From: Candidatus Eiseniibacteriota bacterium
GTDB taxonomy: Bacteria > Eisenbacteria > RBG-16-71-46
Direction: 5' to 3'
Assembly: GCA_044222065.1 (NCBI GenBank)
Contig: JBGAOA010000005.1
Span: forward strand, 22,971 to 86,970
DNA length: 64,000 bases
Part shown: piece after piece, positions 47,113 through 50,100 of the stretch
Layout: every line of letters begins with the position of its first letter
Numbering within the stretch: position 1 is the stretch's first letter
Position numbers: made by a program

Positions 47113-50100
47113 CGCTCGAGCGTGCGCTCATCCTCGCCGGCAGCGACGCGATCGAGCCCGCGCACCTCTCGTTCGCGCGTCCCGAACTCGCGGGCGCGCC
47201 GGCCGCCGGGGCGGGCGCCTCGTGGGTGCCGCGCATTCCCGCCGAGGGGCTGTCGCTCGAAACGCTCGAGCGAGAACTGATCCTGCAGGCGCTGCAGCTC
47301 GCGGGCGGCAACAAGAGCCAGGCCGCGCGGCTGCTCGGGCTCACGCGCCGCACGCTCTACTCGCGCATGGAACGCCACGGGCTGCGTCGCCCGGGCGAGG
47401 ACGGCGCCGACGAACCCGGCGACGCGCAGGAGGCCTGAGGTCACGCTATGGATCTGTTCCGCCGGCTCGTGCTCGACAACCTGGGGCTGAAGCTGCTCGC
47501 GCTGCTCATGGCCGTGCTCGTCTACCTGAACGTGTACACGGACCGGCCAGCCTCGATGCTGCTCACGTTCCCGCTGCAGTTCACCGGCCTGCCCGACTCG
47601 CTCGCGCTCTCGGGTCCGATCCCGGCCGCGGTGCAGGCCGAAGTGCGCGGGACGGGCAAGCAGCTCATCCGCCTCCGACTCACCGAGCCGCAGGTGCGCC
47701 TCTCGCTCGAAGGCGTGGGGCCCGGACGCTTCGAGCGCGCGCTCACGAGCGAGGACCTGCCGCTCGCGGGCTACGAGCGGCTCGAGGTCGAGCGCCTCGT
47801 CGGCCCGCGCACCGTCGAGCTCGAACTCGAACGCCGCGCGCGGCGGGCGCTGCCCGTCCTCGTCGTGCTCGACGGCCCCTCGGCCGCGCGCACGAACGCC
47901 CGAATCACGTACGAGCCGGCGGCCGTCTTCGTGTCGGGACCGGCGCAGGCGATCGCGGATCTCGACACCGTGCGTCTCGCGGGCCTTCACGTGGACGGCC
48001 GGCGCGACACGGTTCGCGCCGATCTCGGTCCCGAGGCGCTGCCGGACTGGTGCGTCATGGATCCGGCGACGGTCCGCGTCACGGTCGCGCTCGCGCGCGC
48101 GCACTGAGCCCCGAAAGGCGGCGGGCGCCCCGGTCTTGCGACCGAAGCGCCCCGCGTGACTGGAGGCGGGTGCACGAGCCGCGCTAGGAGATGGCAGGCT
48201 CGAGGTGGGACGCGACCCGCGCATCCCCGCCGATCCCCGAAGAGGGCAACCGGTGTGCCATGCGGCCTCGGCGATGCGCAACGCGTTCGGGCCGCGCCAA
48301 TCGCGGCCGCACGCGCAGGGGTGCACGGCGTGGGCGAATCCACCCCGCTCGTTCCGAGGCGAACCGCACGCGTGCGGCTTCGGCTTGCACGGTTCCGGCG
48401 GCGCGCGATCAGGGGATCACGCGCTTCGAGCGCGAGGCCTCCCACGGTTCGGGCGGCGTCGCCCTCGCGGCGTCGAGCGCGCGCCGCAGCGCGCCGCGCC
48501 GCTCGTCGTCGCTCGCGCGCTCGAGCAGCTTCTCGATCGCGAGAACGTGCGCCGTCGTGAGGGCCGCCGCGGCTTCGGTCGCGACGTCGGGACGCACGCC
48601 CGTGCCCTCCCAGTTCGTCTTCGAGACGGGGTTGCGCGCGCGGCCGTTCGAGACGAACGCCGCGAAGTGTTCCGACAGCCGGACGAAGCCGCCGGGGTTC
48701 GCGCCGCCGGCCGTCGTGTCGCCGACGATCGTCGCGCGCGCACGGTTCTGCAGGTTGTAGGCGAACTCCTCGGCCGCCGACGCCGTGAGCCCGCTCGTGA
48801 GCACGTACACGTCGCGCTCGCCGAAGCGCGGGCCCGGAACGACCGGCAGCGTGTGGTAGGACTCGACGTACTCGGCGCCGCCGTCCCGGATGACGAGGTC
48901 GTTGAGGTGCACGCGCTCGCCCTCCGGGAAGAGGTAGCTGCACAGCAGCTGCACGACCGAGGGTTCGCCGCCGCCGTTGCGGCGCACGTCCACGATCAGC
49001 GCGTCGCAGTTCGCGAGGAACCGCATCGCCGCCTCGATCGCCTCGCCGGCCTGCGGGGCCGCGAACTGGAAACTCCGCACGTCGAGGTAGCCGACGTTCC
49101 CGGGCAGTCGCGCGACGCGTTCGAAACCGTAGTTCGTGCGGCGGGCCAGATCGCGCACGCGATCGAGTTCGGCCGCCGGCGGCGGGCCGTCACCCTGGAC
49201 CGGCAGCGGGCGCTCGCGGTACGCGACGCGGAAGTGGCGGTCCTTGCCGACCGCCCGCAGCACCGACGTGAGCGAGTCGGCGAACGCCTCCGAACTCGAG
49301 AGACCGTCGAACGCGCGGCGCTTCTGCAGCGCGCGGAACTCGCGCTCGAGGGTCTTCGCGACTTCGGGGAACACGTAGCGCTCGTGCAGCGCGCGTACGA
49401 GCGAGTCGACGACGGCGGCGCGCGTCGGCGCGTCCACGGGCAAGTCCTTCTGATCGGGCGACGGCGGCGCGAACTGCGCCAACGCGGCGCTCGCGACGAA
49501 CGCCGGGGCGAGCGCGGCGAGCCGCGCGAAGCGGAGGAGGTTCACGATCGATCCTCGTGCGTGGGGGTGAGCGGCGGGCGTCGCGGGCGTGCCGCGCCCG
49601 GGGTGCGCGTGAGGCCCGGGTGCGGCCGCACGACGAGCGGTGGCTGCGCACGTTCGACGGCGGCACCACGGACGGGGTTTCACGCGGCGATGCCACTTGG
49701 AGCGCGCGCAGGGTGCGCGCGGATGGACGCCCGGCGCGGCGCACACGACCGGCGCCGCCGGCGCGCCGACGAGCGCGGAGCGCGGTTCGAGCCGCTAAAA
49801 CCGCAGCCGGAACCGCGATTCCGCGCTTGACCCTGCCCGCGGCCGCTCCTAGAGTCCGGTCCGTTCGCAGCGTCGCCCGGCACCGGGCGGCCGCGGCGAA
49901 CCGCGGCGGGACTCGCTCTCACTCCTCCCGCCGTGCACTCGCGGTTTCGATCGCCCCGAAATCCCGCTCACCGAGTCGCAGTTCGCTGCCGAACATTGAG
50001 GATGACGTTCCGGCCCCTCTGAGGCCGGAAGCCGCGCTTCGAATCGCTCGCTCGCGTCTCGCCCCCGGCGTGGCTCCGCCGCGCCACCCACGACCCACTG

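What a model noticed while it worked through the whole genome (the two positions that open the first line are those of the whole stretch)
48105..48260. A ~130-nt sigma-54-driven small RNA downstream of an NtrC-family two-component operon
On the minus strand, convergent with the g00201-204 kinase/activator operon, lies a small RNA: sigma-54 promoter, a covarying stem that presents a ~30-nt invariant C/U-rich loop (complementary to an RBS-plus-start-codon pattern), and a terminator hairpin.
Evidence so far: Call 127: 6 of 12 relatives; call 130: same gene context in 5 of 5 loci. Call 133: 26 GTDB hits; call 134 (24 of them plus this genome): promoter visible in all 25, 15 of 29 pairs with compensatory change, loop invariant. 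Call 131: no Rfam match.
(Added by a program. Inside this text positions count along the whole contig: contig position 22,971 is position 1 of the stretch shown here. "Call 12" and the like, gene names such as g00115 and contig names such as C1 are that model's own, and its searches are not shown. The text may have been shortened before it was handed on; [...] marks where a part breaks off. The agent that wrote the report below was given it as the finding of a first reader that could run no searches.)

Follow-up and report, generated by a model that had tools for sequence, protein, structure and literature searches.

The report
Pilus-linked small RNA of Eisenbacteria
An uncultured bacterial group carries an apparently undescribed small regulatory RNA gene whose on-switch looks like the one in front of its main pilus gene, so it may tie surface attachment to other genes, but its targets and even its expression are still unshown.

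Summary
The element is real. A sigma-54 box (48260-48246, minus strand) precedes a ~130-nt hairpin RNA with a 25-30-nt C-rich loop and a terminator-like hairpin. Homologues occur in 45 of 59 genomes of the same family, whose named records are Ca. Eisenbacteria. Both stems covary. In metagenome hits found without the promoter in the pattern, 46 of 46 had the box 44-49 nt upstream. No Rfam match. Three corrections. (1) The loop is conserved, not invariant: 32 variants in 46. (2) No conserved ribosome-site target was found. (3) The neighbouring two-component system is probably not the activator. The RNA has a conserved enhancer, TGCR-N3-YGCA, the box found de novo upstream of the major pilin genes beside a pilS/pilR-like pair. 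Orthologues of the neighbouring regulator sit next to a different box. Four other families carry different RNAs behind the same promoter design at the matching locus. Best reading: a PilR-type sigma-54 small RNA acting through its C-rich loop, in a genome where Hfq was not found. Target and expression are not shown.

The parts
48386..48396 (-). Upstream enhancer site A (GGAACCGTGCA; right half TGCA conserved)
   Evidence: TGCA lies 21-24 nt before site B in 50 of 56 loci
48358..48368 (-). Enhancer site B, palindrome TGCR-N3-YGCA (here TGCGGTTCGCC), 108 nt upstream of the promoter
   Evidence: starts 107-113 nt upstream in 40 of 56 loci; 31 of 43 metagenome loci against 1 of 43 in a control window; same motif found de novo at pilin promoters
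48246..48260 (-). Sigma-54 -24/-12 promoter TGGCAC-N5-TTGC
   Evidence: 46 of 46 hits of a promoter-free pattern
48105..48234 (-). Predicted small RNA, about 127-130 nt; +1 inferred at 48234 from standard sigma-54 spacing (not observed)
48211..48231 (-). Stem 1, 5' arm
   Evidence: 15 pairs, 85.3% paired, 8 with two-sided change
48184..48210 (-). C-rich apical loop, 27 nt here (family 25-30 nt, 49% C): UCCYWCC, a variable linker, then AGCCUGCCA
   Evidence: AGCCTGCCA in 43 of 46, GGA in 0 of 46
48165..48183 (-). Stem 1, 3' arm
48123..48152 (-). 13-bp terminator-like hairpin with GCAA loop; weak U tract at 48116-48114
   Evidence: (10 of 11 pairs with two-sided change)
44370..45716 (+). Sensor histidine kinase of the convergent operon (neighbour, probably not the controller)
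   Evidence: HisKA, HATPase_c
45713..46015 (+). Small predicted lipoprotein (100 aa, signal peptide ending in VAGC); present in only some relatives
   Evidence: (no Pfam family)
46029..47438 (+). NtrC-family sigma-54 response regulator (recognition helix GLTRRTLYSR)
47448..48107 (+). YbbR-like protein; its stop codon abuts the RNA's 3' end; landmark of the locus across the phylum
48409..49746 (-). S41 peptidase gene lying between the RNA promoter and rho in this genome; elsewhere it lies on the other side or is missing
50203..51474 (+). rho, divergent from the RNA in family f1 (an HU/IHF-family gene takes this place in f2, f4, f11, f13)

Best explanation
A stand-alone, trans-acting small RNA. 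SHOWN (comparatively): a conserved unit of two-site enhancer, sigma-54 promoter, covarying hairpin with a C-rich loop and a second hairpin, which stays intact when genes are inserted on either side (about 0.93 that it is a real RNA gene). INFERRED: it is switched on by the PilR-like activator encoded in the pilB-pilT-pilC-pilS-pilR-pilA cluster, so it is made together with the major type IV pilin (about 0.6; another activator reading the same box about 0.25; the neighbouring regulator about 0.15). INFERRED, weakest step: the long stem holds the loop open so that its UCC/CC words pair with G-rich sites such as ribosome-binding sites in several mRNAs through short seeds and lower their translation, without Hfq (about 0.55). 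No target is identified.
For: RNA gene; insertions on both sides leave the unit intact. Activator: 28 first-pilin promoters hold 2.39 boxes against 0.21 shuffled, with peaks near -141 and -171. With it 48 of 56 RNA promoters exceed the shuffled 95th percentile, and this promoter ranks 3rd of 31 intergenic sigma-54-like sites, the first pilin gene being 1st. Clear PilR-like orthologues (E below 1e-37) are in 56 of 61 genomes, including f13. Orthologues of the neighbouring regulator in f4, f10 and f11 have their own promoter directly behind them with TGTACC-N4-GGTACA; RNA promoters match that box in 2 of 56. Pairing: the loop is more conserved than the stems, 49% C, mean unpaired probability 0.72; both frequent loop variants are C/U, which keep pairing with G. 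Hfq, ProQ and RapZ were not found in this 94% complete genome. Precedent: Hfq-independent RsaE uses an unpaired UCCC motif (PMC2790875, abstract).
Against: No conserved target: start-region scans equal shuffles; neighbours equal shuffles; pilus and flagellar genes show nothing conserved; three candidates failed. The box is common: 16 of 31 intergenic sigma-54-like sites here have at least one, including one next to a different activator, so PilR is not singled out. Box positions differ (-109/-138 at the RNA; -141/-171 at pilin genes). The rival box rests on only 6 promoters. The PilR name comes from gene order; NCBIfam gives no PilR assignment, and the Pseudomonas PilR site is described differently (PMC6058289, passages). 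The arm-swap test is modest: native -31.1 against swapped -26.6 +/- 4.8 kcal/mol, native best in only 4 of 46. An IHF consensus is not enriched in f1. C/U changes are also the commonest mutations. No transcript has been observed.
Confidence: 0.42

Rival explanations
1. Same gene and promoter, but the RNA is a protein decoy or scaffold: the stem presents repeated CC words to an RNA-binding protein (for example a KH-domain protein or Rho) and titrates it.
For: No target in any scan. The loop carries two similar words, and in one genome the first has become a copy of the second (L007). Loop length is about 28 nt in both f1 and f11. A KhpA/B-type protein is encoded. rho is the divergent neighbour in 37 of 40 loci.
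Against: No GGA in 46 of 46 loops, so CsrA is unlikely although csrA is present. RapZ, Hfq and ProQ were not found. Loops differ strongly between families, which is hard to square with one conserved protein partner. rho is not the neighbour outside f1.
Confidence: 0.28
2. One reading: the RNA is the output of the adjacent kinase/regulator pair, as with pxr or glmY.
For: Adjacent in f1 and f2. The regulator's clade also has members in f4 and f11, which carry RNAs (quick tree, SH-aLRT 99).
Against: Different box at promoters beside its orthologues. No clade member among the best hits in two f13 genomes. Kept in f3, in RNA-less f1 genomes, and in f9, f10, f16 and f17 genomes without an RNA at the locus. 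This genome has other sigma-54 sites with the rival box before exported proteins.
Confidence: 0.14
3. Not an independent RNA: a terminator or 3' element of the ybbR operon, a rho leader, or an attenuating leader of a downstream gene.
For: The hairpin abuts the ybbR stop here. In f11 a same-strand gene starts about 30 nt behind the RNA. The U tract is weak.
Against: The unit keeps its own promoter and enhancer and is separated from ybbR by inserted genes in many loci, and from rho in this genome and others. In most f1 loci and in f2 and f4 the next gene is convergent. G-U pairs favour the promoter strand.
Confidence: 0.07

Closest known systems
Pxr of Myxococcus xanthus
   Same: Small stem-loop RNA with a predicted sigma-54 promoter and enhancer region near an NtrC-like two-component pair; the loop of its first stem-loop is required for function (PMC5684412, first of four parts read).
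   Different: pxr lies directly downstream of pxrR, which controls it, and has three stem-loops. Here the RNA is convergent, has one 25-30-nt loop, and carries a box that does not match the neighbour's. No Pxr sequence was compared directly, and I did not check whether Rfam holds a Pxr model.
GlmY/GlmZ of enterobacteria
   Same: Sigma-54 promoter with upstream activator sites at conserved spacing (PMC3045617, passages). A lipoprotein gene between kinase and regulator, as in glrK-qseG-glrR (that layout is recalled).
   Different: GlrR site is TGTC-N10-GACA and IHF is required (PMC3045617). Here the box is TGCR-N3-YGCA, IHF consensus is not enriched in f1, RapZ and Hfq were not found, the lipoprotein is patchy, and there is no Rfam match.
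RsaE and related C-rich small RNAs of Staphylococcus
   Same: Hfq-independent, unpaired C-rich motif that blocks ribosome loading (PMC2790875, abstract and outline).
   Different: No sequence or Rfam relation, different phylum, sigma-54 control, and no target shown here.
CsrB/RsmZ-type and CrcZ-type sponge RNAs (recalled)
   Same: Small RNA output of a two-component system; CrcZ is sigma-54 driven (recalled).
   Different: No GGA in 46 of 46 f1 loops; the RNA is C-rich, not A-rich; Hfq not found.

Membership tests
Any Rfam family | Score at or above a gathering threshold | tested here: not met
   window; best E 0.81; 6 loci of f2, f11, f13; 8 loci, none at E up to 0.5
Sigma-54-dependent small RNA (class) | -24/-12 promoter at fixed distance | tested here: met
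   46 of 46; rpoN present
Sigma-54-dependent small RNA (class) | Upstream enhancer at conserved position | tested here: met
Sigma-54-dependent small RNA (class) | IHF site between enhancer and promoter | tested here: inconclusive
   consensus not enriched in f1, AT 0.30 against 0.23; AT tracts visible by eye in f2, f11, f13, not scored
Sigma-54-dependent small RNA (class) | Discrete transcript with mapped ends | not testable with these tools
   only assembled contigs were offered, which cannot show ends or strand
Base-pairing small RNA with C-rich seed (RsaE-like) | Conserved unpaired C-rich motif | tested here: met
Base-pairing small RNA with C-rich seed (RsaE-like) | Conserved complementary mRNA target | tested here: inconclusive
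   none found; only one whole genome could be scanned, so short seeds are not excluded
GlmY/GlmZ | RapZ and Hfq partners; GlrR box | tested here: not met
CsrB/RsmZ sponge | Several GGA in loops | tested here: not met
   0 of 46
6S RNA | RF00013 match | tested here: not met
   6S RNA lies on another contig
Pxr | Three stem-loops, directly downstream of its controlling regulator | tested here: not met
   two hairpins, convergent; sequence identity not tested
PilR regulon | Same box as the pilin promoter beside pilS-pilR | tested here: met
PilR regulon | Binding and activation by the PilR-like protein | not testable with these tools
   needs a binding or reporter assay

The most novel reading that the evidence does not exclude
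A small-RNA arm of the type IV pilus regulator: a PilR-controlled promoter kept in five families of an uncultured phylum, behind which the RNA itself has been rewritten family by family (a 28-nt loop in f1 and f11, 50-60-nt branched loops in f2, f4 and f13). It would pass pilus or surface-contact status on to other genes without Hfq or ProQ. My literature searches listed no such RNA.
Probability: 0.3. Interest if true: 0.78.

Novelty: new member of a known kind. Interest (0 to 1): 0.58.

Why it matters
It is a well-defined regulatory RNA family in a widespread phylum, with no such RNA listed in my searches. If the PilR-like protein drives it, pilus regulation would have a post-transcriptional output, and the promoter is directly testable in a heterologous reporter. 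The locus also shows how a small RNA can diverge beyond recognition while promoter and position stay. And it warns that a sigma-54 RNA beside an NtrC-family operon need not be that operon's output.

Tried and rejected
Expression: one run search listed 17 runs; I laid 4 of them, from 3 studies. All are contigs. They hold short near-exact pieces of this stretch at depth 2-6, one of them largely in the intergenic stretch before rho, so DNA carry-over is possible. One piece enters 38 nt into the RNA's 3' end; none of the 32 pieces listed spans the RNA (915 not shown). This is uninformative either way. Targets: exact complements of 11 nt or more (the best, 14 nt, lies on the non-coding strand of a chemotaxis gene); duplex energies over 3431 predicted start regions, best -34.6 against -33.1 to -41.8 for 12 shuffles; helix scan; intergenic scan, 26 hits against 13-62 shuffled at 12 nt and 124 against 48-133 at 11 nt. 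DUF6812-like gene: site kept in 0 of 29 orthologues. Gene with an 11-nt match over its ribosome site: found in only 2 of 45 relatives. Thiolase: 7.9 against 8.5 shuffled. rho, ybbR, regulator, kinase and lipoprotein starts. Pilus and flagellar genes. Seed scan in 5 genomes: 21 sites, 3 of them the RNA itself, no recurring context by eye. I tested 3 of the 40 candidates listed. Small peptide: loop lengths of 25-30 break any frame and no start codon is conserved. Phage copy: none in viral contigs. My errors: one search used too short a gap and missed this locus; mis-anchored 4 rows (redone; the 0.72 unpaired figure is); one search used a wrong frame for the kinase (redone). The careful tree did not finish, so the quick tree is cited. 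Earlier scan findings were not available. bioRxiv supplements and subscription papers could hold an earlier listing of this RNA that I could not see.

Full report
WHAT IS THERE. The coordinates are window coordinates. On the minus strand a perfect sigma-54 box lies at 48260-48246. By standard spacing (established knowledge) transcription starts at 48234. The next 130 nt fold into a 20-bp stem with a 27-nt loop (48210-48184), a short linker and a 13-bp hairpin with a GCAA loop; z is -2.59 and none of 200 shuffles is as stable. The 3' end abuts the stop of a convergent YbbR-like gene, last of an operon of kinase, small lipoprotein, NtrC-family regulator and ybbR. Upstream lie an S41 peptidase gene and, divergently, rho. 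Rfam finds nothing here. Its same-family relatives match GTDB records of which 27 of 40 are titled Candidatus Eisenbacteria.

IS IT MORE THAN CHANCE? The promoter alone is not. The family is. A DNA search hit 28 of 61 genomes, some weakly. A GTDB pattern scan gave 48 hits; I dropped 8 that lacked the neighbours and any further similarity. Of the 40 kept, 37 have rho divergent and 34 ybbR convergent. A covariance model matched 45 of 59 genomes of the family and 0 of 91 in other families. Three of the 14 misses hold diverged copies (two of them scored by a second model). On an unfitted alignment of 46 sequences, the structure I named by eye is paired in 86.6% of cells and 18 of 26 pairs change on both sides; 0 of 500 shuffles reach this and slid controls give 38-52% (relatedness inflates such tests). 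An arm-swap test is weaker: native -31.1 against -26.6 +/- 4.8 kcal/mol, native best in 4 of 46 and in the top five in 20 of 46. The cleanest test is. A metagenome pattern holding only loop and stem letters gave 48 hits; 46 had enough upstream sequence, and all 46 have a sigma-54 box 44-49 nt upstream (39 of them new sequences).

The loop is 25-30 nt with 32 distinct sequences in 46; its core is UCCYWCC, a variable linker, then AGCCUGCCA (43 of 46). The part that would pair with GGAG is among the variable ones. The second hairpin covaries, but the U tract is weak here and reaches 5 T in 12 nt in 15 of 46.

THE ENHANCER. Aligning upstream regions shows two sites: CGTGCA and, about 22 nt on, TGCG-NTT-CGCA, which starts 107-113 nt before the promoter in 40 of 56 loci. 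In the metagenome set it scores in 31 of 43 against 1 of 43 in a control window; an IHF consensus (recalled) is not enriched. The genome has rpoN and about 22 full sigma-54 activator domains.

OTHER FAMILIES. ybbR occurs in 185 of 201 genomes of the phylum, so I read its surroundings in 40 genomes. Families f2, f4, f11 and f13 have, facing ybbR and divergent from an HU/IHF-family gene, a sigma-54 box with the same kind of enhancer, followed by a long-stemmed RNA of different sequence. An enhancer-plus-promoter pattern finds f2 3 of 3, f13 5 of 5, f4 1 of 1 and f11 8 of 41, with 1 control hit in 206 genomes; an RNA pattern finds f11 9 of 41. The f11 loop is also about 28 nt and shares GCC(C)UGC(C)AC with f1, but the f1 model scores only one f11 copy, at E 0.018. 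Common descent rests on position and promoter and is an inference. In the f3, f5, f9, f10, f15, f16, f17 and f18 genomes read, and in several f1 genomes, no such unit was found at this locus. The f3 statement uses G038, which is unpublished, but G040, G042, G044 and G045 show the same.

WHICH ACTIVATOR? Two hits were not RNAs but type IV pilin genes. This genome has a pilB-pilT-pilC-kinase-activator-pilA-pilA cluster (names from my reading of the translations and gene order, NCBIfam gives no PilR label). In 28 promoters of the first pilin gene, TGCR-N3-YGCA boxes average 2.39 against 0.21 shuffled and pile up near -141 and -171. Because that consensus was first seen at the RNA, I repeated the test blind: a sampler given only 27 pilin upstream regions from other genomes returned the same palindrome. 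It scores 48 of 56 RNA promoters above the shuffled 95th percentile and ranks this promoter 3rd of 31 intergenic sigma-54-like sites, with the first pilin gene 1st and the two other pilin promoters 7th and 8th. The neighbouring regulator forms its own clade (quick tree). Its orthologues in f4, f10 and f11 are followed by their own sigma-54 promoter with TGTACC-N4-GGTACA. RNA promoters match that box in 2 of 56 (f1) and 1 of 23 (other families); pilin promoters in 0 of 28. In two f13 genomes the best hits to the neighbour reach 351 bits against 419-469 in f11 and f4, and the top three of each fall outside the clade, while PilR-like proteins are clear in 56 of 61 genomes. Against: 16 of 31 sigma-54-like sites here carry one such box, so another activator may read it; the rival box rests on 6 promoters; 17 of the 23 non-f1 promoters were picked with a pattern containing the box, so their 15 of 23 pilin-box score is partly circular; and Pseudomonas PilR is described with a different site (PMC6058289, passages).

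HOW THE RNA MAY ACT. The loop is the most conserved part, half C and largely unpaired. Hfq, ProQ and RapZ were not found in this 94% complete genome; CsrA and a KhpA/B protein were. No loop has GGA, and 6S RNA is elsewhere. That leaves short-seed pairing with G-rich mRNA sites, as for RsaE (PMC2790875, abstract), or a protein decoy. Every target test was negative or equal to shuffles, but only one whole genome could be scanned, so seeds of 7-9 nt are not excluded. I put pairing at about 0.55 and a decoy at about 0.3.

LITERATURE. Searches: Eisenbacteria plus small RNA gave one paper, on CsrA (PMC13443453, two passages read). Eisenbacteria alone gave 81, of which 30 were listed and none concerns such an RNA by title or abstract start. 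PilR/sRNA/type IV pili gave 34, 20 listed, none describing a PilR-activated small RNA. Candidate phyla plus sigma54 gave 2 unrelated papers. Also run. Read: PMC5684412, part 1 of 4; PMC3045617, PMC3162934 and PMC6058289, passages; PMC2790875, abstract and outline. No supplements were read.

VERDICT. A real, apparently undescribed sigma-54 small RNA family (about 0.93), of a known regulatory kind. The most useful new result is that its enhancer is the pilin-promoter box and not the neighbour's. Function and expression remain unshown. Interest 0.58.

Noticed in passing
L201:1631-1850 (+), L202 (promoter at 1515, -), own genome G000:C106:99489-99591 (L312): A second conserved non-coding stretch of about 100 nt (83-88% identical among three genomes) behind a sigma-54 box in two relatives; here it lies about 200 nt before a microcompartment-shell-like gene. 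No Rfam match.
   Followed up: partly
G000:C54 (minus strand, position 47950 of the reverse strand), C32 and C122 sites: Sigma-54-like sites with the TGTACC-N4-GGTACA-type box before exported proteins or lipoproteins: probable true targets of the regulator at window 46029-47438.
   Followed up: partly
window 22260-22274 (+): A second perfect sigma-54 box, 52 nt before a lipoprotein gene (22312-23145) and downstream of another sigma-54 activator.
   Followed up: no
window 45713-46015 (+): Small lipoprotein between kinase and regulator, no Pfam family, present in only some relatives.
   Followed up: partly
L032 and L101 (G138): One genome holds two near-identical copies of the RNA on different contigs, one at a contig start and one at a contig end; probably strain mixture or assembly overlap.
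   Followed up: no
L150:1860-1895 and other f13 loci: f13 RNAs have an extra 5' hairpin and an almost invariant ~60-nt loop with two GGA words, unlike f1; they might bind CsrA.
   Followed up: no
L205:4590-5108 and L213-L242: A DUF6812-like gene divergent from a pilT-like gene has a conserved CCGAT(A) word about 30-40 nt upstream of its start in most relatives shown, possibly a promoter element.
   Followed up: no
window 1526-1599 (-): A tRNA gene, the only Rfam hit in the window.
   Followed up: no
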